Shown here piece after piece: positions 8,569 to 60,048 of a stretch of DNA of 64,000 nucleotides. Position 1 is the first letter of the stretch, and every line of letters starts with the position of its first letter. The DNA lies in IMG/VR virus record IMGVR_UViG_3300025325_000017, one strand, 5' to 3'. Source of the DNA: an uncultured virus (IMG/VR IMGVR_UViG_3300025325_000017) (taxonomy: Duplodnaviria; Heunggongvirae; Uroviricota; Caudoviricetes). The notes below the pieces were generated by a model. That model was given only the letters and a program-made list of their open reading frames with translations. It did no database searches and was not told the DNA's origin. A program made the translations under genes and the position numbers.

Positions 8569-8680
8569 ATCGGACAAAGCTGTTTCCAAAAACATCAGAA
8601 TTTTAAAAAAGGAGGGTTATCCGCAAAAACAAGCAGTCGCCATTGCTATACGTAAAGCCGGTAAAAGTAAAAAGAAGTAA
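8549..8680 (+). CDS. Small basic phage protein (MPLAKGKS...QAVAIA)
   Basis: Translated by hand; SD AGGAG; recurrent phage motif. Confidence 0.65.
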
Positions 8681-8688
8681 TTTATTTT

Positions 8689-13691: not shown

Positions 13692-14924
13692 ATGGCCGAT
13701 ACTCTAACAAAAACTCAGTGGGACGCCGGCGCAGTGGTAGCTACTGACGACATCGCCGGTATTCACTTTCCGAGAGTCAAACTGGTACATGGCGCGGACG
13801 GCACCAATGCCGGCGATGTGGCGGACGCTAATCCGTTTCCGACCGCCCCGCCTATAGATGTCGCCACGCATATCGACACCACGATAGTCACGTTAGCCGT
13901 CGGCGCGACCTATAATTCGCCCGCGTTCGATACGACCGTAGTGGGCAAATTTGTCACGCACTACATCTATGCCGATGTCGCCGGCACGCACAATTATCAG
14001 GAATCGCACGATAACGCGACCTGGCGAACCGTTGACGGCGATGCCGTGTCGGCGGGAGCGGTGTTCGTCGAGGAACATATCTGCAATGCGCGGTACCACC
14101 GCGCCCAGTATGTGAACGGTGGAACGATTCAGGCGACGTTTAATCATCAGGTCGTTTGTTCCTTTGTCGGTGTCCCCCATGAAGTCGGTTTTCGTCCCGG
14201 CGATAACATCGTCCAGGGCGACAAGACCACTAACACCAGCGCCCCCTCGGCCGAAGCACACGAGGTCATCGGTTGCATTGCCAACGCCGCCGCCCCGTCC
14301 TACACGGAAGGCAACGTGGTCATGCCGCGAGTCACCCTCGCCGGAGACACCGCCGTTACGCTCGACGGCGAATCCGTGGTTGTTACGGCCACGAATCTTG
14401 ATGTTCGTGACTTAACCTCGGCCTCCGATTCCGTGGCCGCAGTCTCAGCGGGAGACGTGGCTCACGATGGGGTGGACTCGGGCAATCCAGTAAGCGTGGG
14501 CGGTATCGCCAGATCGGCGCTTACCTCGGTCGCCGCACTTGACCGCGTCAAGGCAATTTTCGATCTTCAGGGCAGACAGATTGTCAGAGCCAATGTCCCG
14601 CGTGGTTTAAGAATCAAGAATACCATCACGCTGACTTCAACCACGGAAACGACTTTACTTGCGGCGGCAGCGGCGACTTTTCACGATCTCACGAAACTTT
14701 GGATTTGCAATACCTCGGCTACGGCGGTGCGTGTGGATTTTCGAGATACAACGGCGGGTTCGGTATTATTTTCATGGTATGTCCCGGCCGGACAATCAGT
14801 GGGATTCACGGATTCTAACGATCCAATAGAGCAAACGACGGTTAATACCGCATGGACGGCGCAACTGTCGGCGGCGGTGACTGACGTAAGAATTTTCGCG
14901 GCTGCTGTAAAGAACATAGCCTAA
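13692..14924 (+). CDS. Virion decoration/fiber-like protein
   Basis: Ala/Thr-rich, beta-rich; paralog at 50247..51473. Confidence 0.55.
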   Translation: MADTLTKTQWDAGAVVATDDIAGIHFPRVKLVHGADGTNAGDVADANPFPTAPPIDVATHIDTTIVTLAVGATYNSPAFDTTVVGKFVTHYIYADVAGTHNYQESHDNATWRTVDGDAVSAGAVFVEEHICNARYHRAQYVNGGTIQATFNHQVVCSFVGVPHEVGFRPGDNIVQGDKTTNTSAPSAEAHEVIGCIANAAAPSYTEGNVVMPRVTLAGDTAVTLDGESVVVTATNLDVRDLTSASDSVAAVSAGDVAHDGVDSGNPVSVGGIARSALTSVAALDRVKAIFDLQGRQIVRANVPRGLRIKNTITLTSTTETTLLAAAAATFHDLTKLWICNTSATAVRVDFRDTTAGSVLFSWYVPAGQSVGFTDSNDPIEQTTVNTAWTAQLSAAVTDVRIFAAAVKNIA

Positions 14925-15652
14925 TGTCCATCTCGCTCAGAGCGGTCGGGACCTACACGAACGGCACGGCGAACCTCACGCCGGGCATTCCAGCGGGTGC
15001 CGTAACCGGCGACATGATGCTGTGCTTCTACGGCACCAAGCCCTATAGCGACGCCCCAACCATAAATCAAAGCTGGAACAATTACGGGAGCGCGACGGAC
15101 GGCACGGTGGCGGCTGGCGTGGATGTTGGCTCCATGCAGATACGAGTCTTCTGGAAGCAGCACACCGGCAGTGAGACGAACCCGACGGTTACCAATGCGA
15201 CGAACAACGTTTCCGGTTGCGTCATCATAGTATTTCAAAATGCTACAAATTCGTGGGAGATAGCCGGAGCGGGAGGTGGAGATAATACCGCCGGTACGGG
15301 ATTCTCGGTGACTGCCAGCAGCAACCCGGGCATTACTGCCGGGGACATGCTTGTGGCTTACGCCGCGCTCCGCTCAGACGCGGCCACGCAGTCGGCAATC
15401 GGCGTCACCGCGACCAGTGCGACCATAGCGGCTTTCACGGAGTCACCTGCGGCTGACCTGGTGACGACCGCCGGTGGCGACATGGCGATGTCCGGTGGGT
15501 ACGCCGCCTGCACGGCGGGGACGGCCACCGCCGCGCCGGTGTACGCCTCGACGCTGGCCGCCGCGCATACAGGTTCGGCGTATATCATGCGACTGCGCGA
15601 GGCGGCGGCTACGTTCATGAAAACACAAACTCTGCCGATGATGGGAGTCTAA
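14924..15652 (+). CDS. Virion structural protein (Ala/Gly/Thr-rich)
   Basis: Near-identical paralog at 51732..52460. Confidence 0.6.
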   Translation: MSISLRAVGTYTNGTANLTPGIPAGAVTGDMMLCFYGTKPYSDAPTINQSWNNYGSATDGTVAAGVDVGSMQIRVFWKQHTGSETNPTVTNATNNVSGCVIIVFQNATNSWEIAGAGGGDNTAGTGFSVTASSNPGITAGDMLVAYAALRSDAATQSAIGVTATSATIAAFTESPAADLVTTAGGDMAMSGGYAACTAGTATAAPVYASTLAAAHTGSAYIMRLREAAATFMKTQTLPMMGV

Positions 15653-27383: not shown

Positions 27384-27761
27384 ATGGAAACTATTCTCGC
27401 GTCACTTGTCGCCCCCGCTGCTGTTGATATGCTCAAAAATCTATTCGCGTCAGCTTCCCGCAAATGGATCGGGTTATCGGTGGACGATCAGATCAAATTA
27501 GAGAACGCTAATATAGAGAGGCTGAAAGCCCTGGCGCTGTTGGATAATCCCAACGGAACACCTTCTCAATGGGTTATAAACCTCCGTGGGGCCTCCAGGT
27601 ACGTCGCAGTCATCCTGTCCGTGGGGGTAGGGGCGGGGATGATGTTAAAGGCCACCACGCCCGAACTGGAGGTCTTGGGCTTTGAGCTTGTCGCCATGCC
27701 TGTCAGCTTCCTTTTCGGCGAAAGAATGTATCTTGGATTCAAAGGTAATATGGCTAAATAA
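27384..27761 (+). CDS. Holin-like membrane protein
   Basis: Hydrophobic segments; FLFGER C-terminal motif. Confidence 0.6.
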   Translation: METILASLVAPAAVDMLKNLFASASRKWIGLSVDDQIKLENANIERLKALALLDNPNGTPSQWVINLRGASRYVAVILSVGVGAGMMLKATTPELEVLGFELVAMPVSFLFGERMYLGFKGNMAK

Positions 27762-27775
27762 CATTTGAATCTCTG

Positions 27776-28009
27776 TTAGGGCGCATTCGCGGCCTCTGAC
27801 ATCGCTGTATCAATCGCGGCTCGAATTGATTCCCCGTGCCCTTGAAATACAATATCGCTGCCGAGCGAGCGGGCATACAGCGAACATCTATCCGGCCCGT
27901 GAATATGTATATCGGCAGGCTGGTAATAAGCAGGATTTTTCTTGTTCACGAACACCGTTCTGTTTCTGAGTGTTTCCAGAAAATCTATACGCTCTGAGTC
28001 TGTTGGCAT
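27776..28009 (-). CDS. Cassette-borne hypothetical protein
   Basis: TDSERIDFL...R.AID phage motif; TAA stop lies in the GTTAGGG core. Confidence 0.7.
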   Translation of the reverse strand: MPTDSERIDFLETLRNRTVFVNKKNPAYYQPADIHIHGPDRCSLYARSLGSDIVFQGHGESIRAAIDTAMSEAANAP

Positions 28010-28027
28010 GTCACAATCTCCGATGCG

Positions 28028-28085
28028 CCCTAACAAATCAATCCACGGGACCGGCTACGCCGGCCCGTGATCTCCGGCGTTAGGC
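28028..28085 (+). other. attC-like site (58 bp)
   Basis: CCCTAAC...ATC(C)ACGGG(A)CCGG-loop-CCGGCCCGTGAT...GTTAGGC with two extrahelical bases. Confidence 0.85.
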
Positions 28086-28112
28086 GGAATTCTGTCTAAT
28101 ACACTGTTATGC
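28084..28112 (+). other. attI-like site 1
   Basis: GCGGAATTCT-GTCTAAT-ACACT-GTTATGC; repeated at 33490 and, inverted, at 38899. Confidence 0.7.
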
Positions 28113-28370
28113 CCGCGCCCGCTTGTACACAGAAATGCGAAACTTATCGTCGGGGCATTTCTTCTGCCATTGTGGCAAATCCTGGATTTCCGAAACGCTT
28201 CGCTCAATTTGGGCGCTCGTCGTTGGTGCCCACAGTGAGTGAGCTTCTCCGTCTACATGCACATCACACCACATTTCAACAACATACAATTCTGGAGCGA
28301 ACGGGTATAACCTCGCCTTCAAAGCGGACTGGCCTCTGCGGCGTTTGGTTACTTTCTGGGGGTTAGTCAT
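28107..28370 (-). CDS. Cassette-borne hypothetical protein
   Basis: Paralog of 34338..34592; stop lies in the R box. Confidence 0.7.
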   Translation of the reverse strand: MTNPQKVTKRRRGQSALKARLYPFAPELYVVEMWCDVHVDGEAHSLWAPTTSAQIERSVSEIQDLPQWQKKCPDDKFRISVYKRARA

Positions 28371-28372
28371 TT
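28305..28372 (+). other. Half attC (left arm only)
   Basis: GTATAAC plus an arm homologous to 34527 onward; no right arm or GTT partner. Confidence 0.6.
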
Positions 28373-29058
28373 CTCTGCCTCAGCCTCTCGGCATAACCAG
28401 TAGTTCCAAGTGGGCACGATGCGTCAGCAATAAATTCTCGTTTGAGCGAGGCAACTTTGTCTCCCTGGAATTGCCAGGGCGGGTACAAAGCGATGATCCA
28501 CAGGCGATCACCCCTCCATTTTGGAGGATCCAGTGTTCCGTGGAGGGCATTTTTCGTGCAAATGGCGAGCGGCCCTGAAATTTCCTCGACAAGACCGACC
28601 CTCGCTTTTGTGCCGCCGCCGCCGTTGGCCGGAGTTCCGTCTGCATGGGATCGCCAGTACGCTAAGATCGCTCCGGCTTTCTCCGCTGCTGGGGCGAACC
28701 TGGGTAGCGTTCGCATCCAATAGACAATACTTTCGCTATTGTCGCCGTCGCCGCCGCCGTCGCCGTCGCCGTAGCTGTGGCCGTAGTCGCCGCCGTAGCC
28801 GTAGCTGTGGCCGCCGCCGCCGTAGCCGCCGTCGCCGCCGCCGTAGCCGCCGTCGCCGTAGCCGCCGCCGCCGTAGCCGCCGTCGCCGTAGCCGTAGCCG
28901 TAGCCGTAGCCGCCGCCGTCGCCGTCGCCGTCGCCGTCGCCGTAGCCGTAGCCGCCGTCGCCGTCGCCGTAGCCGTAGCCGCCGCCGCCGCCGTCGCCGT
29001 CGCCGTCGCCGCACAACAACTCCATTTCCGAAGAAATACTTCCGCGTAATACGCGCAT
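28363..29058 (-). CDS. Gly/Tyr/Asp-repeat (GYGDG) phage protein
   Basis: Low-complexity tract 28741-29010; TAATG coupling to the upstream gene. Confidence 0.7.
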   Translation of the reverse strand: MRVLRGSISSEMELLCGDGDGDGGGGGYGYGDGDGGYGYGDGDGDGDGGGYGYGYGYGDGGYGGGGYGDGGYGGGDGGYGGGGHSYGYGGDYGHSYGDGDGGGDGDNSESIVYWMRTLPRFAPAAEKAGAILAYWRSHADGTPANGGGGTKARVGLVEEISGPLAICTKNALHGTLDPPKWRGDRLWIIALYPPWQFQGDKVASLKREFIADASCPLGTTGYAERLRQRND

Positions 29059-31658: not shown

Positions 31659-32432
31659 TCATGTTTTCTCCAGATATTTTTTGTCCAGTTGCCAGTAAGC
31701 AAGTAGTAATCGGAACTTTTCAAATCCAGTATCGAGTAACGATTGGTCCCATTCGTGGACACGGGTCAGGCCGGGGTTATTGACTGAAATAAATATATTT
31801 ATTCCCCTGGCGTCGAGTGGCATTCCAAGCCCCGCACGATAAGCGGCCAATTGCATGCATTGTTCCGGCCAAGCAAGGTTATCGCTGGTTTCGGAAAATT
31901 CCTTGGTTTTGAAATCAATCACCATCTTGTCGTTATGCAAATCCACCTTCCCCCCGTAACCCAAGGGCGAAGCAAACGATCTTTCGCTATGCCATCCATC
32001 GCCTAATTTTTTCAGTTCCTCCAATACGGCGGTAACAAATTTTTCATGGGCAGGGTTAAAATCCTTGTGTTGCAAAGCACGATCTATCGAGCCATGAATT
32101 GCAGACCCTTCCTCGGCTCTTTTTCGTGACTGTTCCTTGGCGTCCCGCGTGACTCGAACCGCGAAATCATCCAATGTTTCGTCCGGATTCATAGGAAGCG
32201 TCAAGGCCGCCAAAATCGCCTGCCGCAGTTTCCATTTTTCTAAGCCCGGCTTGGACAGAAGAGAAATAATCATCGTCACGCTGGGGAACAACCCCAAACG
32301 GCGGGCATCGCGTAGCGTAGTCGGGCGCTCCGGTTTATCCCCAACACGGATTGTGTACATCGGAGAGCCGTCAGGCATATACCAGTGGCCCGATTCAACG
32401 GCAAATTCCTTCTTGAGTTCGTTCATGGTCAA
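31659..32432 (-). CDS. PD-(D/E)XK exonuclease-like protein
   Basis: PSVT, GSAIH, GGKVDL..IDFKT, QLAAY. Confidence 0.85.
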   Translation of the reverse strand: MTMNELKKEFAVESGHWYMPDGSPMYTIRVGDKPERPTTLRDARRLGLFPSVTMIISLLSKPGLEKWKLRQAILAALTLPMNPDETLDDFAVRVTRDAKEQSRKRAEEGSAIHGSIDRALQHKDFNPAHEKFVTAVLEELKKLGDGWHSERSFASPLGYGGKVDLHNDKMVIDFKTKEFSETSDNLAWPEQCMQLAAYRAGLGMPLDARGINIFISVNNPGLTRVHEWDQSLLDTGFEKFRLLLAYWQLDKKYLEKT

Positions 32433-32815
32433 AATGGAATTCCGTCATCGAACGGGAGCGGTTCTTTATTCTGTTCCGGTTGCTGTTGTGTGCCGGGTCG
32501 CGGCGCGCGGCAACGAATACCGCCCACGAGCTTGCCGCCGAAAGACACGTTATCGTCTTCGTAGATAACAATCTTTTTGCCCTTCCATTCGTCTGTTTCT
32601 TCGGTATCGAGAGCCTTAGCAATAAGCTGGATATTGGTCCAGTTCAGGACCATGCCCTTCGAGAACTCATGAAAGTGGATGACCCACTTCATTTCCGGCG
32701 GCTGATCCTCCATCGCAACGTTGGCCTGCTCGATGTCGGCAATGGTCACCAGTTTGCCGGTACCAACGTCTTCTTTTTTCAGGTACTTCGATTCGCGCAT
32801 CGTGCCAATTTTCAT
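32429..32815 (-). CDS. Single-stranded DNA-binding-like protein
   Basis: SKYLK...LNWTN...GGIR; acidic FDDGIPF tail. Confidence 0.7.
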   Translation of the reverse strand: MKIGTMRESKYLKKEDVGTGKLVTIADIEQANVAMEDQPPEMKWVIHFHEFSKGMVLNWTNIQLIAKALDTEETDEWKGKKIVIYEDDNVSFGGKLVGGIRCRAPRPGTQQQPEQNKEPLPFDDGIPF

Positions 32816-33033
32816 TTCGTGCTCCTTTTTCAGTTTGGGTTTAAGTGCGTCTCAAGTTCAATCTTCGTCAGTTCACAATCTCCTCATAATTGATTCCACA
32901 CTCGAAACATAAATGTTTAAATTCCTCAGTCACCCCGGAATGTTTGATCGCAGCATAGACTTTACGCAAACATTCAAAGGTATAATGTTCCCGTTCTTCA
33001 AGATCGCGCCGTTGTTCCTCGTTCCAATCCGTT

Positions 33034-33345: not shown

Positions 33346-33472
33346 AGATTCTCGCCACCCTCCGACGAGACACCCAATAAGGGCGGAGCTTCGGGAAGAC
33401 CCCAGGAACGCTGCTCATCACGTCGAATTTTAGTCGCCTCCGAGACAACTCATAGTACCGTTCGTCGGCTGA

Positions 33473-34033
33473 TTATTGCCGTTCATCATGCGGAATTCTG
33501 TCTAATACACTGTTAGGAGGCTCAAGAATGAATGCAGCAACGTGTCGCCCCGTTCCATTGCCCTTGGATCCGTCCTCCGTAGCCAACCATTTCACATCCC
33601 CAAGGTTCCGAACCTCGGCCCCTGCCGCCAAGAGCATCAATACCCATTTGTCAATCGGGTACACCAAAACCACCCGCTTGCCCTTGCTGTTTTCCTGAAT
33701 CGCTTTCCTTGCCCATGCTGTTGGACCCTTCTTCTTGCCTTCGTGCAAAATTGATCCAAATGGGGGGTTCACATAGTTCGAGGATCCCCACTCGCAAGTG
33801 AGTCCGTCAAACTCCTCTGGCTTCGGGTAAGGGCAAGGGTCAAAGTCAAAAGCAAACTCTGCCTGTAGGGGTGCCAGAACTTCTGGTGGGGTCAGCCAAT
33901 AGTGTTTACCGTCGTCGCCGTTACCCTGGTGGAACTTGTTGTCGTGAGGGTGCAAGCGCCTCCTAACAACGTGCTCCACCTGACCGGCTACGTCGGCGGA
34001 CCTTGCTGTCTCTATGGTTTCGTCTGGCTTCAT
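33473..34033 (-). CDS. Phage Dam-type DNA N6-adenine methyltransferase (cassette-borne)
   Basis: WLTPPE, FDFDPCP, YVNPPF. Confidence 0.8.
   Translation of the reverse strand: MKPDETIETARSADVAGQVEHVVRRRLHPHDNKFHQGNGDDGKHYWLTPPEVLAPLQAEFAFDFDPCPYPKPEEFDGLTCEWGSSNYVNPPFGSILHEGKKKGPTAWARKAIQENSKGKRVVLVYPIDKWVLMLLAAGAEVRNLGDVKWLATEDGSKGNGTGRHVAAFILEPPNSVLDRIPHDERQ
33490..33518 (+). other. attI-like site 2
   Basis: GCGGAATTCT-GTCTAAT-ACACT-GTTAGGA. Confidence 0.7.
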
Positions 34034-34081
34034 TGTTTCTCGTGCTCTTTGTCCGCCGTCAGGTGAGCTTGGCCGTTAGCC
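33961..34081 (+). other. attC-like site (121 bp)
   Basis: TCCTAAC..GCTC(C)ACCTGAC(C)GG / CCGTCAGGTGAGC..GTTAGCC. Confidence 0.85.
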
Positions 34082-34320
34082 GTCAACTTCCGCAAGCACT
34101 TCCGGCAAGTGATTTCTGTTCCTATGTGCGACGACCATCCGGCGCTTCTGCGCCCTGGCTTAGCCCCGCACATTGCCGCCCAGTGCCCATTATGGATCGC
34201 ATGCCAAAGCGCACCGCTATCTCGCTCTGCACCGTTCGCACATCGTCCTGACAATCTCATGGCTAACACGTCGCTGGAGCCGACGGTTTTGTCAGCGGAC
34301 TCCTGTTTGTCATTTTGCAT
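34030..34320 (-). CDS. Cassette-borne small Cys/His protein
   Basis: H..C..CxxC; start and stop both lie inside attC loops. Confidence 0.65.
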   Translation of the reverse strand: MQNDKQESADKTVGSSDVLAMRLSGRCANGAERDSGALWHAIHNGHWAAMCGAKPGRRSAGWSSHIGTEITCRKCLRKLTANGQAHLTADKEHEKQ

Positions 34321-34343
34321 CGCGGCTCACCTCTGCGTTATAC
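34261..34343 (+). other. attC-like site (83 bp)
   Basis: GGCTAAC..GCTG(G)AGCCG(A)CG / CGCGGCTCACC..GTTATAC. Confidence 0.8.
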
Positions 34344-34592
34344 CGCTTCATATCTCTTGATCCGAAATTTATCCTGTGGGTTCCTGTTGCTCCATTCTTT
34401 CTTCCTGGCTTTTGCTGAGGGCCAATCAAGTGCAATACCTACGGTAGGCCCCCACCCCGTATACCAGCCTTTCTCGCCACGAACATCGGCATATAACTCA
34501 ACTATAAACACTCGTGGGAGTTCTCGGTATAACACCGCCTTTGAGGCGGACTGGCCTCGGCGGCGCTTAGTTGCTTTCTTTGGCTTGGTCAT
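34338..34592 (-). CDS. Cassette-borne hypothetical protein
   Basis: Paralog of 28107..28370. Confidence 0.7.
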   Translation of the reverse strand: MTKPKKATKRRRGQSASKAVLYRELPRVFIVELYADVRGEKGWYTGWGPTVGIALDWPSAKARKKEWSNRNPQDKFRIKRYEAV

Positions 34593-34646
34593 TTCTCAGT
34601 CTCCTTTGTTTCTTTCCCCGGCCAGCCGCTCAAGGCGGCGTTAGAT
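34527..34646 (+). other. attC-like site (120 bp)
   Basis: GTATAAC..TTGA(G)GCGG(A)CTGGCC / GGCCAGCCGCTCAA..GTTAGAT. Confidence 0.8.
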
Positions 34647-34852
34647 GGCAAGAACCCCATCTGTTCCGGTATTCCTACGCAGGTCAGTAATCTCACGGCG
34701 CCGTCGCGCCACATAACAAAATAAAAATCATCTTGTCCATGGAGCAATCCGATGAAAATATGCTCTTTGCCTTCTTCATCGAGATACTTGTTCCCTATCA
34801 GGGGGTCGTATTCCTCAACCAGTTTTGTCCAATTGTCATTTGCGTATGTCAT
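34589..34852 (-). CDS. Cassette-borne hypothetical protein
   Basis: Reads through the R box into the attC arm. Confidence 0.65.
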   Translation of the reverse strand: MTYANDNWTKLVEEYDPLIGNKYLDEEGKEHIFIGLLHGQDDFYFVMWRDGAVRLLTCVGIPEQMGFLPSNAALSGWPGKETKETEK

Positions 34853-34888
34853 CTGACATCACCTTGAACCGGACGCGGATTACGCCGC
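34851..34888 (+). other. Degenerate attC (R'' AAC>GAC, right arm lost)
   Basis: GTCATCTGAC matches 8/10 of the complement of cassette start GTTAGATGGC; then TTGAACCGGACGCGG..CCGC. Confidence 0.5.
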
Positions 34889-34997
34889 CTCTCGAATAAT
34901 CTCGCCCACATATTCCTGTTCGTTTTCATCGAAAACGTAAATTTTATGAAAGTCGTCCTCGCAGCAGCTATAGACTATGCGATAAATCGGGCTGACT

Positions 34998-35204
34998 TCA
35001 GCCTGATACACGTCGCGCTCGTCGTATTGGTGAAGATACATCGTTTTTCCTGATTCCGAGTCTTTGTCTAGCGCCCATAATCCGATCGGTCTGAGATTGC
35101 GGGAGTATGTTGGGCCACATGTAAATAGCGTGTCGTCCTACCCCGAGTGCGGCGGCTAGGGCTTTAACCGAGCCAAACAGGGCTATTGCTTGCTGTTTTG
35201 TCAT
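34998..35204 (-). CDS. Cro-like HTH regulator
   Basis: AIALFGSVKALAAALGV..AIYMW. Confidence 0.8.
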   Translation of the reverse strand: MTKQQAIALFGSVKALAAALGVGRHAIYMWPNILPQSQTDRIMGARQRLGIRKNDVSSPIRRARRVSG

Positions 35205-35210
35205 AAGCCG

Positions 35211-35239
35211 AAGATAAGCGCAATTACACCTATTGTCAA
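35211..35239 (-). promoter_or_regulatory. sigma70 promoter for a leaderless cro-like mRNA
   Basis: TTGACA-17-TATCTT, 6 nt before the ATG, no SD. Confidence 0.65.
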
Positions 35240-35328
35240 ATGTTTTACTTATTCGGAATGTCCTAGTTTAAGGTAGTGATTGTCGTGGGTATGATGTTTC
35301 CGAATGGGAATTGCTATCCTACCAGCCC

Positions 35329-35976
35329 ATGGCTTACCAAAGCGCTGTCTTTCGTAAGGGCAAATACCGCCAGAAAAGTGTGCGGGCGAGAATTCTGGCC
35401 TTCTTTCTAGATAACCTAGGGAGGGTGGCATTGCGGGAGCAGATACAGGAGGCTGCGCGAGATCCCAAGACCGGGAAAATTCCAGAAAACTGGCACCAGC
35501 GACTATCAGAACTGCGCACCGACCATGGCTACACGATCCTGTCGCAGCGAAACCGCGGCGACCTTAAGGTCATGGAATACCTAATGCTAAATGCCGATAA
35601 GCGGCCGAAGGCGAGGGGCCGCATTCAGCCGACTTCGGCGACGTGGAGGGCAGTCCTACTCAGGGCGGGCGGCGCGTGCGAGTGGAGGGACCATGGCGCC
35701 GTGCCGTGTGGCCTCGCGGACGGGGCCATTGATCCAATCGGAGGTGGCACCGTCAAGCTCACGCCAGACCACCTTACGCCACACGAAATTGACCCCGATT
35801 CGGACCCTACCGAGCCGGGCCACTGGCAAGCTCTTTGTGGGCGCCACCAAGTAATCAAGAAAAACTTCTGGGATGACCGCAGCGGTAACCTGAATGTCTA
35901 CGCCATCATTCAGGCTGCGTCAGAAGTTGATAAGCAGAAGGTTTACGAGTTTTTGAAGACTTACTTCGGAGACTAA
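35329..35976 (+). CDS. HNH type II restriction endonuclease, R.KpnI-like
   Basis: PENWHQRLSELRTD, IDPIGGGTVKLTPDH, WQALCGRHQV.KKN match R.KpnI as recalled. Confidence 0.8.
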   Translation: MAYQSAVFRKGKYRQKSVRARILAFFLDNLGRVALREQIQEAARDPKTGKIPENWHQRLSELRTDHGYTILSQRNRGDLKVMEYLMLNADKRPKARGRIQPTSATWRAVLLRAGGACEWRDHGAVPCGLADGAIDPIGGGTVKLTPDHLTPHEIDPDSDPTEPGHWQALCGRHQVIKKNFWDDRSGNLNVYAIIQAASEVDKQKVYEFLKTYFGD

Positions 35977-36691
35977 CGCGAGTCGTATTGAGGCGCTTTT
36001 CGGTAATTTTCGTATAGTCTTCGGAGAGGTCCGAAAGGATCGCGTTGCGGCGGAGCGCCTTACAAGCGGCGCCGGTCGTGCCAGCCCCGCACATCGGGTC
36101 TAACACCGTGTCGCCCTCTACCGTCGTCATGAGGATGAGTGGCTCAATGGTCTTAATGGGTTTTTGTGAAGGATGGCCTGTTTGCTCAGCCCGCCCCACG
36201 AAGCCGATATTAAGTGGGACATTGAAAACACTTGGCGGGCCAGGCATGTAGCGGAGGGTCCCTGCCTTTTTTCGATCAAGTTGGGCCTCATTGAGAAAGT
36301 GCTCCGGATAGATACGCGCGCCAGTCTTCCCAAAGTGTAGGCAGGTATTTTGCGCTGATCTCCAGCCTTGAATAACTGACGGACAGTTCGGATAGTACCA
36401 TGTCAACCATGCCTTAAGATCGAAGCCTGGCGGGAGCCGATCAGCTTGTCGGTAGACGATCTCTGGGAAACCCCAGATGAATACATGTTCTGAAATGTCG
36501 GCGGCGGCGTGAATGAGTTTTGAAAGCCAGTCGTCGTAATCCGGTCTGGCACCACCGACGCCCTTGTTATACCAAGGGTCGAGGATCGTCGTCGTCACGC
36601 GCCTGCCGATAGTTGTAAGTGTTTCCAGCGCATCGGCTGGCGGGAGGATTTTGACCGAAGCGACGGCTCGGCGGTTAGGTGGCTTAGCCAT
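35906..36691 (-). CDS. Beta-class N6/N4 DNA methyltransferase
   Basis: DPWY, HPSQKP, VLDPMCGAGTT; convergent with the endonuclease. Confidence 0.88.
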   Translation of the reverse strand: MAKPPNRRAVASVKILPPADALETLTTIGRRVTTTILDPWYNKGVGGARPDYDDWLSKLIHAAADISEHVFIWGFPEIVYRQADRLPPGFDLKAWLTWYYPNCPSVIQGWRSAQNTCLHFGKTGARIYPEHFLNEAQLDRKKAGTLRYMPGPPSVFNVPLNIGFVGRAEQTGHPSQKPIKTIEPLILMTTVEGDTVLDPMCGAGTTGAACKALRRNAILSDLSEDYTKITEKRLNTTRVSLRSKSSKTRKPSAYQLLTQPE

Positions 36692-37598
36692 TGCGGTCCT
36701 CAGTATCTTCCAATGCGAGCGGAATCGTTTCATTTTTTTTTGGGAGCGCACGTTGCAATAATCGGTAAAAGTGTTCCCATGTTGCGCTTGCCCGCATAAG
36801 CGCAATAGTTGCATGTAGGTGTTGCGCTAGAGCCGGGTGTCCAACATCCTGAGTTAGCCACTGATGATGTTTTGCTGGACGATTACCTGTCTCGTTTTTC
36901 GGGTTACGGGATTTAAGCTCTTTTAGAATGCCTGGTGCTAATCGTTCGTAAACAATATCATTGGTGTAACGCCCGACTACACTAGGGCGGTTTATTTTCA
37001 TCCCCTGCCACTGCCAATTTTTGAGCCTGAAAATCTGCTCATAAAATTCATCAGGGAATTGGCGCGCCCAAGCCGCTAGTTCTTTCCTAAGATAGCGGTT
37101 AAGGATTGCCTCAAGTGCTCTCCTGTCCCGTATCTCTTGATAGCCGGTTGCCTCATCAACCAATGCAATAATTCCGACATGGGCGAAGCCGCGAATGAGC
37201 AAGTTCGCCATATCCGCAAAGCGCTTTTGATTGGTACGAAGTACACCGGCCTTTTCAGCATCGAGGATGACTTCGCAAATCTGTGGAAGTAGCTTCGCGT
37301 CGTAACCGAAGGCTGTGCGCCCCCCGTGTTTTGCGCGATAAGGAATTGGAGAGTTCAGGCGCACCATTAACTCATTGGAAATAAAAGAACTTATGCTTTT
37401 CGACGCCAAAAATGACGGGATATTGGGCGCGCCGATTCCGGATGATTCTGGGGTGCCAGTTCTACGTGAACCAATAGCTTTGCTAACGCCGCGTGTGGAC
37501 AAAACACGGGTGCCATCCTCAAGAACAGCGCATGGAATAACACGTCCCGCAACCTTAAGGTCACCATCATGTGTGGCTCGCAGGATTTTAGCATTCAT
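36684..37598 (-). CDS. P63C domain protein
   Basis: IPCAVLEDGTRV, GIIALVDEATGYQ, KHHQWLT. Confidence 0.88.
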   Translation of the reverse strand: MNAKILRATHDGDLKVAGRVIPCAVLEDGTRVLSTRGVSKAIGSRRTGTPESSGIGAPNIPSFLASKSISSFISNELMVRLNSPIPYRAKHGGRTAFGYDAKLLPQICEVILDAEKAGVLRTNQKRFADMANLLIRGFAHVGIIALVDEATGYQEIRDRRALEAILNRYLRKELAAWARQFPDEFYEQIFRLKNWQWQGMKINRPSVVGRYTNDIVYERLAPGILKELKSRNPKNETGNRPAKHHQWLTQDVGHPALAQHLHATIALMRASATWEHFYRLLQRALPKKNETIPLALEDTEDRNG

Positions 37599-38482
37599 AT
37601 GCTTGCTCCTACTGCGCGAGCAATTGTCAGGCCGAAGAGATCAGCGGTTGTGCGGTGATTGAACCGGTAGCAAAACTCATTCAGGTATTGCGGGAGGTGG
37701 CGCACGCTGACCTTGTGGTACTGGCCGACGATCCCACGCTTGAGAAGCGCCCAAAACGACTCAATGCCGTTAGTGTGAATATCGCCATTCACATACCAAA
37801 GCTGGTGATTGATGGTCTTATGTGGCATGAAGTATTTGATGCCAAGATAGCCTTTGTATTCGTCAGTAATGAGCACGGCATTTTGAACATCTACATGTTC
37901 GCGTACTAATGCGGAGAGGGATTTCGCCTTAAGCTTATCCTTACGAACAACCCTTGCTTTTACGTTCCCACCGCGCTGGATCATTCCGACAACCGGGGTT
38001 TTCCTGGTGCCGCGTCCGCGCTTCGGCGCTCCGCCGCCACCGCCTTTGCGGGGCTTGCCGCCGACATAGGTTTCGTCCATTTCGACTACACCTTGGAGTA
38101 GTTGACGTTGCGCGCCTTCGGCCATTGCTTTACGTATCTGCATACCCATGCGCCAAGCCGTACTCTTATTAACTTCGAGATCGCGGGCAAGTTGACGAGC
38201 GGAAATGCCTTTCTTGGCATTCAGGATTAACGAAACTGCAAGGAACCATTTTTGAAGCGGTAAGTGCGTATGATGAAAGATAGTTCGTATGGTCACGCTA
38301 AAAGTGGTCTTACAGGCATTGCAGTGGTGCCGTTGTTCTTTCGGCATTGGCGTGGAATTACCGACCACGCTACAATATGGACAAAATGGCTTACCCTGCC
38401 AGCGCACAGTCTCAAGATGGGCGATGCAATCCGCCTCGGTCGGGAACAGTTTATAGACTTGGATGATGTTCATTGTCTGCAC
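37595..38482 (-). CDS. IS1595-family transposase
   Basis: Zn ribbon; VEMDETYVGG; TDEY; HTNGIESFW; YLNEFCYRFN. Confidence 0.95.
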   Translation of the reverse strand: MQTMNIIQVYKLFPTEADCIAHLETVRWQGKPFCPYCSVVGNSTPMPKEQRHHCNACKTTFSVTIRTIFHHTHLPLQKWFLAVSLILNAKKGISARQLARDLEVNKSTAWRMGMQIRKAMAEGAQRQLLQGVVEMDETYVGGKPRKGGGGGAPKRGRGTRKTPVVGMIQRGGNVKARVVRKDKLKAKSLSALVREHVDVQNAVLITDEYKGYLGIKYFMPHKTINHQLWYVNGDIHTNGIESFWALLKRGIVGQYHKVSVRHLPQYLNEFCYRFNHRTTADLFGLTIARAVGASI

Positions 38483-38508
38483 CTTTCATCACTACCATTA
38501 CAGCAGAC

Positions 38509-38537
38509 AGTATAAACCCTTTGTTTCTGTTTGTCAA
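38509..38537 (-). promoter_or_regulatory. Promoter of the transposase-P63C-MTase operon
   Basis: TTGACA-17-TATACT abutting the TIR. Confidence 0.65.
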
Positions 38538-38571
38538 CTACCTTAAACTAGGACATTCCGAATTAGTTTAC

Positions 38572-38689
38572 CATTAACGCAGAGCGCGGCCACAGGAGGA
38601 AAAGATGAGCACCGCTGACGAAGATCATGCTTGCCAAGCGACTCCGCACTCTGAGTTGATGGCGCAGTTGCTGGAGCGCAGTGTTAGAA
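38572..38689 (-). other. attC-like site, inverted, with imperfect L boxes
   Basis: Minus strand TTCTAAC-ACTGC-GCTC(C)AGC ... GCCGCGC-TCTGC-GTTAATG. Confidence 0.6.
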
Positions 38690-38700
38690 CTGGAGGATGA

Positions 38701-38904
38701 ATGAGATTGAAAATGACTATAGACGAATGTATGGCCTTTGCGGACGAGTGGAGCCGTGGCATGACACTGCATGAAGATTCACAAGGTTGGCGGGTGGTTT
38801 GCATGTTACTGGCCGAGGAAGTGAAAACCCTGCGAAAAGGCGAATACATTTGCCGGAAATGTGGGCTACGCAAAGATGACGAACATGAGCGTGGTGAGTT
38901 CTAA
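38701..38904 (+). CDS. Cassette-borne small Zn-ribbon protein
   Basis: CRKCG; TAA stop in the R box of attI-like site 3. Confidence 0.65.
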   Translation: MRLKMTIDECMAFADEWSRGMTLHEDSQGWRVVCMLLAEEVKTLRKGEYICRKCGLRKDDEHERGEF

Positions 38905-38927
38905 CAGTGTATTAGACGGAATTCCGC
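38899..38927 (-). other. attI-like site 3 (inverted)
   Basis: Minus strand GCGGAATTCC-GTCTAAT-ACACT-GTTAGAA. Confidence 0.7.
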
Positions 38928-38939
38928 CTATCCCCAAGT

Positions 38940-38963
38940 AAAAAGCCCCCTTGCGGGGGCCTT
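38940..38963. terminator. GC hairpin, probable terminator (A-run suggests minus-strand use)
   Basis: AAAAAGCCCCC-TTGC-GGGGGC. Confidence 0.5.
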
Positions 38964-39387
38964 CTACCAGCACTAGCGCCGGAGAAGCGTTTGTGCTATT
39001 TTGCGAGTGTCAAGATCGCGTAATCGTTATACGCCTTCCGACTTCGAAACGCAACCTTGACCGGACTCCCCTCGATAGTGGTAGCGCGCATCATGTCGCG
39101 GCCGGGAAGAAAAGCATGATTGGCCTTGGAAAACAAGGCACTGGCTCAGAACCGGCCTTCGGAGGCGTCATGGTTATGACCTCCGGCGAAACAGGTAAGC
39201 TTTAAGCCCGTCCATACTTACGCGGCCTCGGCGACGCTCCTTTAGAATAACAAGGGAGGCAATACAGAGGGGCGGGGCGTCTGGCCCACGATATAGGGCA
39301 CCTGATAGCGCGCAACCATCTCCAAAGCATCCGCCGGCGGGCGGGGAGTGCGGTGCGGTGGTATGTCCTAAAAAGGAGAACTACTTT

Positions 39388-40032
39388 ATGTCAAAAAAAA
39401 CCGATGAAGAAAAAGATCAAAGAAAACTTGAAGTCCGTCAAATTATCGAAAATGAACTGATTCCAATCTGGCGCGGTCAACAGCAACGGATGGAATATGC
39501 GATCACATGGATCGTAACTAAAACTGGATATTCATCGGAAATATTCCGGAGTGAAGTCATTCCCTGGTTGAAAGAATGGAACCGCCAGACCGACATGGCG
39601 GACAGATCCGGCAAGCGGGAGTTTTACGCACCGCTGCCGAACCTGTATACTTTCGTCAGTGAGAAACGCTGGAAAGACAAGCTGCCTTTCGATAGTTTCG
39701 CCGAACTGACATCGGATGACAAGATTCAGACATCGTGTTCCTGCGGCAAGAAAGCGATCATCAAGATCGGTCCCGAGTGGTTTTGTTCCTGGCACTACTC
39801 CCATCAGTTTTGCAACACCGGACCTACGGGGCTGGATAAACTTCGTCACGCTTGGAAAACCAGAATCCCCCACAAGCCGAACGAGTCCGGACTTGAGTAT
39901 ATCGCGCGCGTCTACGGTGGAGGAAAAAAGCAAAGCCTGGGAGAAGATAAAACAGAAATCACCCGATCTGGCGGCGTTTCTGACTACGGTCCGGAAGACG
40001 CTTGGGCCTACGGCGGTGAGGATCTGGTTTAA
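39388..40032 (+). CDS. Putative replication-region protein
   Basis: SD AAGGAG; F.....RW.D motif; C-terminal Zn ligands. Confidence 0.45.
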   Translation: MSKKTDEEKDQRKLEVRQIIENELIPIWRGQQQRMEYAITWIVTKTGYSSEIFRSEVIPWLKEWNRQTDMADRSGKREFYAPLPNLYTFVSEKRWKDKLPFDSFAELTSDDKIQTSCSCGKKAIIKIGPEWFCSWHYSHQFCNTGPTGLDKLRHAWKTRIPHKPNESGLEYIARVYGGGKKQSLGEDKTEITRSGGVSDYGPEDAWAYGGEDLV

Positions 40033-40482: not shown

Positions 40483-40855
40483 TGATCGTCGCAAGCTGGA
40501 AAAAAAACTGGATGTTGTTTTTTCGCGTTATATACGCATGCGAGATAAATTAACTTGCCGGCGATGCCGGAAAAAATACGACAGGTTCTGTACCGGAATA
40601 CAGTGCAGTCATTTTTGGGGCCGCCGGCATCGCGCGACCAGGTGGAACGAGTTAAATTGTATCGCTCTTTGTGCTGGCTGCCACCTGCACCTGACTGCTA
40701 ATCCCGCGATACATCATGCCTGGTACATGGAGCTTATCGGCCCTGGGGCGTATATACGGTTGGAGCATTTGCATAACAGCTCGCCGAAATTCACCGCTAA
40801 CGATTTATCACTTTTGCTGCGAGACTACCGCAAAAAACTGGAGGCATTTTCGTGA
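40475..40855 (+). CDS. NinG/Rap-like endonuclease
   Basis: FSRYIRMRD..CxxC, CSHF, TRWNELNC..LC..CH. Confidence 0.85.
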   Translation: MSSDRRKLEKKLDVVFSRYIRMRDKLTCRRCRKKYDRFCTGIQCSHFWGRRHRATRWNELNCIALCAGCHLHLTANPAIHHAWYMELIGPGAYIRLEHLHNSSPKFTANDLSLLLRDYRKKLEAFS

Positions 40856-42282: not shown

Positions 42283-43203
42283 TCATTGCGTCAGCGCCTT
42301 GTAGGTGATGCGCTTGCCAACGGTCGCACACACGAAACTATCGAGGCGTTCCAGCGTGTGCCGCTTCACGTTGCCGTCATTCAGCCGGAACGCAAACTCG
42401 TTGACGTATCGGCCCAAGTGCTTGCGGCTGGTGTGGTGGTAAACGCCGAGTACCCCGCGCTTCATGACCGCGAACACGCTCTCGATGCTGTTGGTCGTGA
42501 CGTTGCCGCGCACGTATTCCCCACCGCTGTGGTTGATCGCTTCGTGGCGGAAGAACAGGCCATCAAGCCCACTGTAAGCCGTCGCCTCGTCGGTGTGCAG
42601 CGTCGAGCCAACCGCAACACGCGCATGAATTGCACGGTGTACGGTGTCCAGGTTCACGTCGGCAATCGGCGTGGCAATCGTCTTGCCACCGCGCTCACGC
42701 ATGCCGAGCACCGCAGCCTTACCGACTGCGCCGCGCCCGGCATTGAGTTTTTTTACGGTGTGCTTGTTCGCCTCCTTGCCGCCAAAATAGGTTTCGTCAA
42801 TTTCAATGATGCCTTGCAGCTTGGCCAGATCATCGCCGCACGCCTCACGCAGGCGATGCAGGACGAACCACGCGGATTTTTGGGTGATGCCGATCTCCTT
42901 GGACAGTTGCAGCGAGGAAATGCCCTTACGGCTCGTTACAAGCAGGTACATGGCATAAACCCACTTTTGCAGCGGAACATGCGACCGCTCGAAAATAGTG
43001 CCGGTGCGAACGGTGAAATCCTCGCGGCAGGCATTGCAACGGTAATAGCCATCCTTGCGATTCGTCACACGTTCGCCACTGGCGCAGATTGGGCATTTCA
43101 CGCCGTTCGGCCAAAGGCGCGACTCCAAATAGAGCCGCGCCGATTCTTGGTCGGGGAACAGCTTGAAAAGCTGAAATGTGCTGATAGTCAGGCTGTCGTT
43201 CAT
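42283..43203 (-). CDS. IS1595-family transposase
   Basis: Zn ribbon; IEIDETYFGG; HTDE; TTNSIESVF; YVNEFAFRLN. Confidence 0.95.
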   Translation of the reverse strand: MNDSLTISTFQLFKLFPDQESARLYLESRLWPNGVKCPICASGERVTNRKDGYYRCNACREDFTVRTGTIFERSHVPLQKWVYAMYLLVTSRKGISSLQLSKEIGITQKSAWFVLHRLREACGDDLAKLQGIIEIDETYFGGKEANKHTVKKLNAGRGAVGKAAVLGMRERGGKTIATPIADVNLDTVHRAIHARVAVGSTLHTDEATAYSGLDGLFFRHEAINHSGGEYVRGNVTTNSIESVFAVMKRGVLGVYHHTSRKHLGRYVNEFAFRLNDGNVKRHTLERLDSFVCATVGKRITYKALTQ

Positions 43204-59439: not shown

Positions 59440-59526
59440 GGGGCTATGGTTGAATTCATGTTGCTCGCCGCCCCGCGTTCCGGCACGACTTGGTATAATA
59501 ATGGCTTACTTTCTAAGGAGTGCGCC

Positions 59527-60048
59527 ATGAAAGATTACCAATGCAGCGTTTATGGATGCGAAAAGAACTCATCAAGATTAAAAATGTGCGATATGCATTA
59601 CCGCAGGCTTAAACGACACGGGAATCCCGATATTGTTTTACAAGCTAAGGGGCTTTCTCTAAAGCAACGTTTTTATAATTCAGTAATAGTAAAAGATGGG
59701 TGTTGGGATTGGTCTAAAAAAATTAATAGCAATGGCTATGCAGCACTTTTTTTCGATGGGAAATGGATGACAGGAAACAGAGCTTCTTGGATATTACACA
59801 TAAGTAGTATTTTGCCTGGGATGCATGTTTTACATAAATGCGACAATAGAAAATGCACTAATCCTGATCATCTTTTTTTGGGATCAAATAGTGAGAATGT
59901 TGCCGATAAGGTAAGCAAGGGAAGGCAATATAGAAAATATGCCAGTATGTGCTCCATAAATGGATGTGAAAATTCATCTAGAAAACTAGGTCTTTGCGTT
60001 TCTCATTACAATAAGCAATATCACGAAAATGTTAAAAAACATGATTGA
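59527..60048 (+). CDS. Free-standing HNH homing endonuclease
   Basis: CWDW, VLHKCDNRKCTNPDHL..G...N; AT-rich; own SD. Confidence 0.9.
   Translation: MKDYQCSVYGCEKNSSRLKMCDMHYRRLKRHGNPDIVLQAKGLSLKQRFYNSVIVKDGCWDWSKKINSNGYAALFFDGKWMTGNRASWILHISSILPGMHVLHKCDNRKCTNPDHLFLGSNSENVADKVSKGRQYRKYASMCSINGCENSSRKLGLCVSHYNKQYHENVKKHD

What the first reader, a model, noticed from the sequence alone, without database searches (positions are those of the whole stretch)
33961..34646. attC sites double as frame-standardised translational couplers
Seen: genes either stop at the TAA of the core (27776, 28107, 34338, 38904) or read through it with AAC as an in-frame Asn (PPN, TAN, PSN). In that AAC frame, the attC arm ends in TGA overlapping the next ATG at 34030-33, 34589-92 and 38605-08. 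At 34310-20 it reads ATGCAAAATGA. Purine-rich SD-like sequences sit in at least two loops (AAGGAG near 34600, AGGAGG at 38594). Inference: any cassette order preserves coupled translation, ribosomes would melt the hairpins, and shuffling would swap C-terminal tails. This looks like a design rule for antisense cassettes expressed from phage operons.
Basis: partly seen in the sequence, partly recalled or inferred. Interest (0 to 1): 0.8.

Follow-up and report, generated by a model that had tools for sequence, protein, structure and literature searches.

The report
Integron cassettes inside a phage operon
The hairpins are genuine integron recombination sites that bound small gene cassettes in a phage's early operon, and the gene ends run into them, but the proposed universal frame rule for coupled translation holds at only some junctions.

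Summary
33961-34646 holds three integron attC sites (33961-34081, 34261-34343, 34527-34646). They lie downstream of an attI-type site (33490-33515) in the leftward early operon of a P22-like phage that has no recombinase. A covariance model built on a bacterial integron array finds them on the minus strand only (E 3e-5 and 4e-5 for the two sites not used in training). The same 23-nt attI motif sits about 250 bp from an integron integrase gene in Gilvimarinus chinensis.

All cassette genes lie on the attC bottom strand, co-directional with the operon. Genes either stop at the core TAA or read through with AAC in frame (23 of 26 junctions in four phage records). ATGA overlaps occur at 34030-33 and 34589-92. 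The 38605 example is not an attC.

Tail swapping is well supported: ORF87 and Dam homologues share a core ending at ...SN or ...PN, then diverge.

The "frame standard" is not general. Only 5 of 11 AAC read-throughs end in ATGA. ATGA motifs in the attCs are split 11, 10 and 1 among the three frames. The SD-like loop motif and TAA-in-core stops also occur in ordinary bacterial arrays.

This is a new variant of a known kind.

The parts
33490..33515 (+). attI-type site (copy 2). It is conserved up to GTTA, and the sequence to its right varies between records. The crossover point is inferred at G33512|T33513.
   Evidence: The 23-nt motif is found 3 times in the window, against 0.17 expected. In 12 viral and 6 bacterial loci the flanks diverge right after GTTA. 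In L016 it lies about 250 bp from an integron integrase gene (TIGR02249, 394 bits against a cut-off of 265).
33473..34033 (-). Dam-like N6-adenine methyltransferase ORF (cassette 1 body, 33513-34075). It reads PPN through the attI core and ends 13 codons later at a TAA. Its ATG at 34033 lies in the loop of attC e. An alternative TTG start lies near 33955, just after AGGAGG.
   Evidence: Pfam Dam and phrog_111 hits. Frames. Homologue N- and C-termini. Annotated phage homologues.
33961..34081 (-). attC site e (121 bp; the bottom strand is the minus strand). One bulged G lies at the 17th position from the outer end, on the 3' arm. The loop holds ATG 34033, which overlaps the stop of the upstream ORF.
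   Evidence: Model R1 hit 33957-34085, minus strand, E 3.1e-5, not in the training set. DNA and RNA folds.
34030..34320 (-). 96-aa ORF (cassette 2, 34076-34337). It reads TAN through the core of e and stops at a TGA that overlaps ATG 34033.
   Evidence: Weak phrog_4304 hit.
34261..34343 (-). attC site f (83 bp). The upstream ORF stops at the TAA of its core. The next ATG (34320) lies 17 nt downstream, after GAGGTGA.
   Evidence: Model R1 hit 34257-34347, 60 bits; this site was in the training set. Its homologue in G003 at 15096-15186 scores E 1e-7. Its MFE fold is weak.
34338..34592 (-). 84-aa ORF (cassette 3, 34338-34640). Its start lies in the loop of attC g, and codons 12-24 are encoded by the attC 3' arm. 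It stops at the TAA in the core of f.
   Evidence: The paralogue 28107-28370 is 40% identical over 82 aa and starts with the same N-terminus.
34527..34646 (-). attC site g (120 bp). It has three bulged bases on the 3' arm of the minus strand. The loop holds AAGGAG and ATG 34592, which overlaps the upstream TGA.
   Evidence: Model R1 hit 34523-34650, minus strand, E 4.3e-5, not in the training set. Duplex energy -24.8 kcal/mol. RNA fold -44.4 kcal/mol, z -2.4.
34589..34852 (-). 87-aa ORF (cassette 4). It reads PSN through the core of g, and 17 further codons come from the attC arm and loop.
   Evidence: In the family alignment the conserved core ends at ...SN and the tails then vary.
34853..34888 (-). 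Truncated attC (one arm only) of cassette 4, joined to the phage backbone.
   Evidence: Window 34619-34888 matches G002 1829-2099. The match ends inside G002 attC A4 (2058-2152, E 7.8e-18). The backbone match starts at 34881.
28028..28085 (-). Short attC site b (58 bp), with bulged G and T on the 3' arm of the minus strand.
   Evidence: training member. Near-identical copies occur at other places in G002 and G003.
28087..28109 (+). attI-type site (copy 1). ORF 28107-28370 stops at its core TAA.
38902..38924 (-). attI-type site (copy 3), inverted, in the rightward operon. ORF 38701-38904 (+) stops at its core TAA.
27775..27781 (+). Lone GTTAGGG core at the distal end of the array. ORF 27776-28009/28036 stops at its TAA. 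Its 12-nt extension is complementary to 28024-28035.

Best explanation
The interval holds three integron attC recombination sites that separate four small gene cassettes: a Dam-like methyltransferase and three unknown proteins of 96, 84 and 87 aa. The cassettes were inserted next to an attI-type site in the leftward early operon of a P22-like phage.

The phage carries the sites but no recombinase. Cassette gain, loss and reshuffling would therefore be carried out in trans by a host integron integrase (inferred).

All cassettes are inverted relative to the usual integron layout. Their genes lie on the attC bottom strand, so phage early transcription reads them from the cassettes towards attI.

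The genes are packed against the cassette boundary (YTAA|C on the coding strand). Each one therefore either uses the TAA of the core as its stop, or has no stop of its own and reads on in the AAC frame. In the second case it borrows a tail of 2 to about 50 residues and a stop from whatever lies downstream.

In one subfamily of long attC sites the loop carries a start codon. That start opens the next gene or a bridging mini-ORF of 31-35 aa, and it overlaps the borrowed stop (ATGA). Upstream ribosomes then unwind the 5' arm and hand over to the next start.

This is local translational coupling of the ordinary phage-operon kind. It is not a frame standard valid for any cassette order.
For: Identity of the sites:
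- Model R1 was built from 7 attCs of a bacterial array (L018) and 7 phage sites.
- Its hairpin is supported by covariation: 83% of cells paired against 29-45% when slid, and 11 of 20 pairs with compensatory changes.
- It hits the window 4 times, all on the minus strand. Sites e and g were not in the training set.

attI:
- The 23-nt motif occurs 3 times in the window.
- Sequence varies directly after GTTA in 18 other loci.
- It lies next to an integron integrase gene in L016.
- Integron integrase scores above the cut-off in 2 of 5 bacterial genomes that carry the motif.

Orientation:
- The polarity of the model hits agrees with the attI polarity in 6 bacterial loci and 4 phage records.
- Bulged bases lie on the same arm as in the L016 control.

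Phage context:
- P22 portal and coat, terminase, Cro, NinB and NinG are present.
- No tyrosine recombinase was found in 0 of 5 viral records, including one that is 96% complete; the control matched in 14 of 14 genomes.

Mobility:
- The cassette array between attI and the backbone differs between the window and G002.
- The ORF87 cassette sits in another array in G002.
- G002 10721-11117 equals G003 14725-15121 at 99% identity, in another operon.
- The G002/G003 homology breakpoint lies exactly at the core.
- Metagenome contigs of 3 runs show a form that lacks 27760-28072.

Frames:
- 12 junctions are TAA stops and 11 are AAC read-throughs, of 26 junctions in all.

Tails:
- ORF87 family: 12 of 18 sequences have N at the boundary, followed by unrelated tails of 0-51 aa.
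- Dam family: 10 of 25 have ...PN followed by diverse tails.

Coupling:
- ATGA overlaps occur at e, g and G002 A2, A3 and A5.
- The G002 A3 mini-ORF of 31 aa ends in TGA directly before the next ATG.
Against: - No recombination, transcription or translation was measured.
- The window's own genome is not held, so no host integrase could be sought.
- attC f folds poorly.
- The strict 7-nt consensus GTTRRRY is met by only 2 of the 4 window sites.
- The right end of the array is a truncated attC joined to the backbone. That is not an integrase product.
- The dataset is small: four phage records and about 21 distinct attCs, several of them homologous.
- Gene calls rest mostly on ORF length.
Confidence: 0.8

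Rival explanations
1. The attC sites are built to a frame standard: AAC in frame, with the arm ending in a TGA that overlaps the next ATG. Any cassette order would then keep translation coupled, with ribosomes melting each hairpin.
For: - 5 junctions (e, g, G002 A2, A3, A5) follow the rule, although the arms differ in length (27-51 nt from AAC to TGA, always a multiple of 3).
- The same ORF87 gene stays ATGA-coupled in front of two different attCs: g in the window and A3 in G002.
- The first AAC-frame stop lies in an ATGA context in 7 of 20 phage attCs against 0 of 20 bacterial attCs of the same family (Fisher P=0.008). A recount with the corrected core of L058 C1 gives 8 of 21.
- The third frame is almost unused: at most 3 of 26 junctions. 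The binomial P is 0.02 for <=3 of 24.
Against: - 6 of 11 AAC read-throughs do not end in ATGA: window attI copy 2, G002 A4b, A6, A7, A10 and L058 C3.
- All 5 ATGA attCs have an AAC-class gene upstream. No TAA-class gene is seen in front of one, which fits adaptation junction by junction rather than a standard (my tally).
- ATGA motifs are split 11, 10 and 1 between the frames (P=0.08).
- e, A3 and A5 are homologous sites and do not count as independent cases.
- Short attCs have no loop start, and the next gene starts outside them.
- The SD-like loop motif is inherited from bacterial attCs.
Confidence: 0.17
2. The hairpins are not integrase substrates. They are generic intergenic palindromes (terminators, REP-like repeats) or chance structures within coding sequence.
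For: - attC f and the hairpin at 38571-38663 fold weakly or are not recognised.
- RNA fold z-scores are modest: -0.9 to -2.6.
- e and g lie largely inside ORFs.
Against: - Model hits are strand-specific, with E about 1e-5 for untrained sites.
- Covariation is seen across the bacterial and phage sites.
- The sequence consensus is shared with a bacterial cassette array.
- The cassette start is complementary to the inner core of that cassette's own attC: 10 nt at 33512/33960 and 9 nt at 34337/34521.
- 14 of 18 loci of more distant relatives have no such hairpin.
- No minus-strand terminator-like site lies inside 33961-34646.
Confidence: 0.02
3. The array belongs to a bacterial chromosomal integron that merely lies next to, or was mis-assembled with, phage DNA.
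For: - The window comes from metagenome assemblies.
- Contigs break at the repeated attI and attC b sites.
- Identical attI and related attCs occur in bacterial genomes.
Against: - The cassettes lie between phage backbone genes (exonuclease side and Cro side). Those genes are collinear in several independent viral contigs, including one genome that is 96% complete.
- Single contigs of 1408 nt in three runs span 33458-34865.
- Arrays occur in both early operons, each co-directional with transcription.
Confidence: 0.01

Closest known systems
Integron attC sites and gene cassettes of chromosomal integrons in Gammaproteobacteria (attI next to intI, as in Gilvimarinus chinensis; the array in an Acidiferrobacterales MAG)
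   Same: Same attI motif and same attC sequence and structure family. Cassette boundaries lie at G|TT. Bulged bases lie on the bottom strand. Gene stops lie inside the TAA of a core.
   Different: No integrase in the element. Several attI copies occur per genome. Every cassette gene lies on the bottom strand rather than the top strand. Starts lie inside attC loops. Many genes have no stop of their own.
Clusters of attC sites (CALINs) and attI sites in phage genomes (Qi et al. 2023, PMC9892861; abstract and the first two of three parts of the Results and discussion section read)
   Same: Phages and prophages carry attC arrays without an integrase. One Shewanella prophage has such an array with its own attI. 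Methyltransferase cassettes are present. Phage attCs are recombined by IntI1 in an assay.
   Different: In the passages I read, that paper describes arrays oriented as in bacteria, or with divergent attCs. It does not describe inverted cassettes fused into phage operons, read-through tails or loop-borne starts.
ORF-11, ORF-18 and ORF-17 in attI1, and short ORFs inside attC sites of class 1 integrons (Hanau-Bercot 2002 and Jacquier 2009, as summarised in review PMC8876359; passages read)
   Same: Short ORFs cross the recombination site. They take their stop from the core or from the neighbouring cassette. They relieve the attC stem-loop by termination-reinitiation. This is the same coupling logic.
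   Different: Those ORFs run on the top strand, from the Pc promoter. Here the coupling is on the bottom strand, between full-length phage-operon genes, and the borrowed part is the C-terminal tail of a real protein.
PeSL promoter/stem-loop cassettes that mediate modular shuffling in T4-type phages (PMC2839356, PMC4122927; search listing only)
   Same: Conserved stem-loop motifs flank small variable genes in plastic regions of phage genomes and mark the boundaries of shuffled modules.
   Different: PeSLs are promoter-terminator motifs thought to act through homologous recombination. They are not sites of an integron-type tyrosine recombinase.

Membership tests
Integron attC site | Inverted outer cores with conserved AAC ... 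GTT triplets (RYYYAAC / GTTRRRY) | tested here: met
   AAC and GTT are present in b, e, f and g. The strict 7-nt GTTRRRY pattern fits only b and g.
Integron attC site | Imperfect hairpin with inner boxes and extrahelical bases on the bottom strand | tested here: met
   Bulged bases lie on the 3' arm of the minus strand in b, e and g, on the same side as in the L016 control. In f the fold is weak.
Integron attC site | Structure conserved through compensatory changes across the family | tested here: met
   83% of cells paired against 29-45% when slid. 11 of 20 pairs have changes on both sides. 0 of 500 shuffles reach the score.
Integron attC site | Cassette boundary at G|TT, with the cassette start complementary to the inner core of its own attC | tested here: met
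   Complementary pairs at 33512/33960 (10 nt), 34337/34521 (9 nt) and 27775/28024 (12 nt). Homology breakpoints between records lie at cores.
Integron attC site | Recombined by an integron integrase | not testable with these tools
   No assay was possible. No integrase is present in the window or in 5 viral records.
Complete integron | intI gene adjacent to attI | tested here: not met
   The window has no tyrosine recombinase. 0 of 5 related viral records have one. The structure is therefore an integrase-less array with attI-type sites.
attI site | Conserved site next to intI, with variable cassettes starting at its GTT | tested here: met
   The motif lies next to intI in L016. The flanks vary after GTTA in 18 other loci. 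Integrase binding was not tested.
Translational coupler (termination-reinitiation element) | Upstream stop overlaps or abuts the downstream start | tested here: inconclusive
   Met at e and g and at G002 A2, A3 and A5. Not met at 6 other AAC junctions or at the TAA-class junctions with short attCs.
Translational coupler (termination-reinitiation element) | Downstream expression depends on upstream translation | not testable with these tools
   No RNA holder was listed. No ribosome profiling data were available.

The most novel reading that the evidence does not exclude
A lineage of temperate phages without any recombinase keeps attI and attC platforms in both early operons. It uses the host's integron integrase to trade early accessory genes, such as the Dam methyltransferase (plausibly counter-defence genes), with bacterial integrons and with other phages.

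To make inverted cassettes work inside a polycistronic operon, the attC family has evolved two features: loop-borne starts or bridging mini-ORFs, and cassette genes without their own stops. Translation then runs through the hairpins, and every move gives the protein a new C-terminal tail.
Probability: 0.3. Interest if true: 0.8.

Novelty: new variant of a known kind. Interest (0 to 1): 0.6.

Why it matters
Integrons are known as bacterial gene-capture devices, and recent work shows that their cassettes store anti-phage defences. Here the same recombination sites appear on the phage side. They sit in early operons, in the opposite gene orientation, and without an integrase. This suggests that phages can borrow the host's integrase to reshuffle early accessory genes.

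The finding also gives a natural example of protein C-termini being exchanged as a by-product of site-specific recombination. It extends the known attI/attC short-ORF coupling of class 1 integrons to the other strand.

The data are comparative only. The coupling claim and the recombination claim both need experiments.

Tried and rejected
- The window's own genome is not held. The nearest viral record, G001, lacks the region.
I used my own hairpin scan instead.
- RNAalifold on the MAFFT alignment gave no structure. I supplied a structure by hand and tested it.
- A 15-nt version of the attI motif gave 61 viral loci, almost all chance matches without the GAATTC part. Only L058 was new.
- 18 loci of more distant relatives of the exonuclease gene had 6 weak hairpin hits in 4 loci and none in the other 14. 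They added no junctions.
- The hairpin at 40551-40654 (-18.4 kcal/mol) lies in the NinG-like gene and is not hit by the model. I treat it as chance.
- I assumed that the G002 gene upstream of attC A6 was the DUF6948 homologue. That was wrong. Its frame was instead judged from the plausible CxxCxxCC-type translation.
- The homologue search for the 84-aa ORF found only itself.
- No RNA holder is listed for the region.
- In the laid contigs, the joints 28109->34896 and 28109->35247 rest on only 28-29 letters of the repeated attI motif, so they were not used.
- The promoter and terminator scan found no more sites than shuffles give.
- Supplements of PMC9892861 were not opened. They may list phage attC orientations relevant to the novelty claim.
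Full report
**Observation.** I read 33500-35200, 27650-28450 and 38400-39400 and listed the ORFs.
- All four claimed stops at a core TAA are real: 27776, 28107, 34338 and 38904.
- All three AAC read-throughs are real: PPN, TAN and PSN.
- The ATGA overlaps at 34030-33 and 34589-92 are real.
- The example at 38605-08 fails. No ORF enters that frame, because a TAG lies at 38564-66. The hairpin 38571-38663 is not recognised by the attC model. Its left end is the inverted repeat of a 3.3-kb IS1595-like element, with repeats at 35239-35277 and 38537-38575.

**What the hairpins are.** Three lines of evidence identify them as attC sites.
- Fold and energy. Single-strand DNA folding gives long imperfect hairpins for b (28028-28085), e (33961-34081) and g (34527-34646), with bulged bases on the 3' arm of the minus strand. 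A scan of the whole window for TAAC...GTTA-ended hairpins ranks g (-24.8) and e (-20.6 kcal/mol) first. The best value in 5 shuffles was -17.0.
- An attI-type motif. A 23-nt motif ending in GTTA occurs three times: 28087 (+), 33493 (+) and 38924 (-). The chance expectation is 0.17. Exact copies occur in 12 viral loci and 6 bacterial loci, and in all of them the sequence diverges directly after GTTA. In Gilvimarinus chinensis (L016) the motif lies about 250 bp from a divergent integron integrase gene (TIGR02249, 394 bits against a cut-off of 265). In five of the six bacterial loci attC-like hairpins follow it on the cassette side. The motif is therefore an attI-type site.
- A shared attC family. 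The phage hairpins align with the attCs of a bacterial array (L018, an Acidiferrobacterales MAG). The shared features include the loop motif ACAGGAAAC. A hand-drawn hairpin on that alignment is paired in 83% of cells, against 29-45% when slid, with compensatory changes in 11 of 20 pairs. The covariance model built from it gives 50 matches at E<=1 in 184,198 bases. Four of them are in the window, all on the minus strand. Sites e (E 3.1e-5) and g (E 4.3e-5) were not in the training set.

**Orientation.** In every bacterial locus and phage record, the strand of the model hits agrees with the polarity of the nearby attI. The bulges lie on the same arm as in the L016 control. The plus strand is therefore the attC "top" strand, and the minus-strand genes are antisense to the usual cassette orientation. 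In L018, by contrast, long ORFs run on the top strand.

**Context.**
- The window holds two related P22-like phage genomes in tandem.
- The interval lies in the leftward early operon, downstream of a Cro-like gene.
- No tyrosine recombinase is present in the window or in 0 of 5 related viral records, one of them 96% complete. The control matched in 14 of 14 genomes.
- Integron integrase scores above the cut-off in 2 of 5 bacterial genomes that carry the motif, and fragments occur in a third.

**Cassette behaviour.**
- Between the attI-type site (33515) and the backbone (34881), the window has about 1.36 kb in four cassettes. G002 has about 0.7 kb of other sequence at the same place.
- The 87-aa ORF cassette lies in a different array in G002 (1829-2099).
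- An attC plus cassette of G002's rightward operon (10721-11117) recurs at 99% identity in the other operon of G003.
- One cassette follows attI in G002 and an attC in G003, with the homology ending at the core.
- Contigs from three metagenome runs show a form that lacks 27760-28072, and many loose ends fall at 28030-28109. This evidence is weak, because those sites are repeated.
- 14 of 18 loci of more distant relatives have no such hairpins.

**Frames.** I tallied 26 junctions in the window, G002, G003 and L058 where an upstream gene could be called.
- 12 stop at the core TAA.
- 11 read through in the AAC frame. These are 10 distinct genes, because ORF87 is counted twice.
- 2 stop a few bases before the core (L058 C2 and C4).
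- 1 doubtful 50-aa ORF uses the third frame (G002 A8).
- One ambiguous case was settled by 8 synonymous against 5 non-synonymous differences in the TAA frame.
- Three or fewer "other" cases in 24 has a binomial P of 0.02.
- Top-strand genes of the bacterial arrays show the same preference, mostly stopping at the TAA of the inner core. The dichotomy is therefore a general property of integron cassettes, mirrored onto the other strand.

**The ATGA rule.**
- Of the 11 AAC read-throughs, 5 end in a TGA that overlaps an ATG: e, g and G002 A2, A3 and A5. Six do not: window attI copy 2, G002 A4b, A6, A7, A10 and L058 C3.
- The first AAC-frame stop lies in an ATGA context in 7 of 20 phage attCs against 0 of 20 bacterial ones (Fisher P=0.008). 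A recount with a corrected core gives 8 of 21.
Twenty bacterial attCs hold only 3.
- The five ATGA sites all have an AAC-class gene upstream, and three of them (e, A3, A5) are homologous.
- After TAA-class stops the hairpin is left untranslated. The next start is either 17 nt on (f) or beyond the whole attC (G002 A4, 80 nt).

**Where genes start.**
- ORF84. The start in the loop of g is supported by a paralogue (28107-28370; 40% identity over 82 aa) with the same N-terminus.
- Dam. 12 of 24 close homologues start within 5 residues of the conserved block. One has Met exactly where the window has a TTG preceded by AGGAGG. Only two share the loop-encoded extension. The true Dam start may therefore lie outside attC e.
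- Bridging mini-ORFs. In G002 the loop ORFs of A3 and A5, which are homologous to that of e, are mini-ORFs of 31 and 35 aa. The first ends in TGA directly before the next ATG. The second overlaps the next start. These mini-ORFs are the best support for a coupling function.

**Tails.**
- In the ORF87 family (17 database clusters plus G002), the conserved core ends at ...PSN. 12 of 18 sequences have the Asn, followed by unrelated tails of 0 to 51 residues. Seven of the 12 tails begin with Ala, as expected from the family consensus AAC-GCC.
- In the Dam family, 10 of 25 sequences end their core with ...PN followed by diverse tails.
- The inference that shuffling swaps C-terminal tails is therefore well supported.

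**Comparison with the literature.**
- Phage-borne attC clusters, including a prophage array with its own attI and methyltransferase cassettes, were reported by Qi et al. 2023 (PMC9892861).
- Coupling by short ORFs that cross attI1 or sit in attC sites is described for class 1 integrons (review PMC8876359).
- My searches found no description of integrase-less phage arrays with inverted, translationally fused cassettes.
- PeSL elements of T4-type phages are a functional analogue (listing only).

**Limits.**
- The junction set is small and partly non-independent.
- Gene calls are ORF-based.
- There are no expression or recombination data.
- The host is unknown. One Dam homologue is labelled Sulfuricaulis, and the runs that hold the region are sediment, groundwater and soil metagenomes.

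Noticed in passing
window 35239-38575: A 3.3-kb IS1595-like element bounded by 39-nt inverted repeats. It carries a transposase (37595-38482) and passenger genes: a DNA methylase (35906-36814), a P63C/anti-repressor-like protein (36684-37598) and two small ORFs. It is inserted between the Cro-like gene and the rightward operon. A second IS1595-family transposase lies at 42283-43203.
   Followed up: partly
window 1-27761 and 27776-64000: Two related but distinct P22-like phage genomes lie head to tail, with segments at 80-95% identity offset by about 37-43 kb. No integrase or bacterial DNA lies between them. The junction at 27761/27776 is identical in three other viral contigs.
   Followed up: partly
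L013-L018 (bacterial loci) and the window attI copies: An exact 23-nt attI-type motif is shared by genomes labelled Gilvimarinus, Ectothiorhodospiraceae, Acidiferrobacterales and uncultured Gammaproteobacteria. That is unusually strict conservation across orders for an attI site.
   Followed up: partly
L019 (G002) 1717-1809 and 2692-2797, minus strand: Mini-ORFs of 31 and 35 aa start in attC loops, share a K-P...D-E-T motif with the N-terminus of the window's Dam ORF, and bridge to the next gene.
   Followed up: partly
window 28107-28370 and 34338-34592: Two paralogous small proteins (40% identity) both sit in cassettes. The first has lost the outer arm of its attC, and its ATG is followed directly by a CTAAC core in which the upstream 250-aa ORF stops.
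   Followed up: partly
window 32373-32865: Contigs of three metagenome runs join 32372 to 32866 (69 letters on the shorter side). This skips the 128-aa ORF 32429-32815, and G002 has other sequence there. It is a variable backbone segment with no recognised attC.
   Followed up: no
window 6384-9648: Sugar-modification genes (GDP-mannose 4,6-dehydratase, a DegT-type aminotransferase, a radical SAM/SPASM protein) lie just upstream of the terminase of the first phage.
   Followed up: no
window 59446-60048: An HNH / His-Me homing-endonuclease-like ORF lies among the late genes of the second phage.
   Followed up: no
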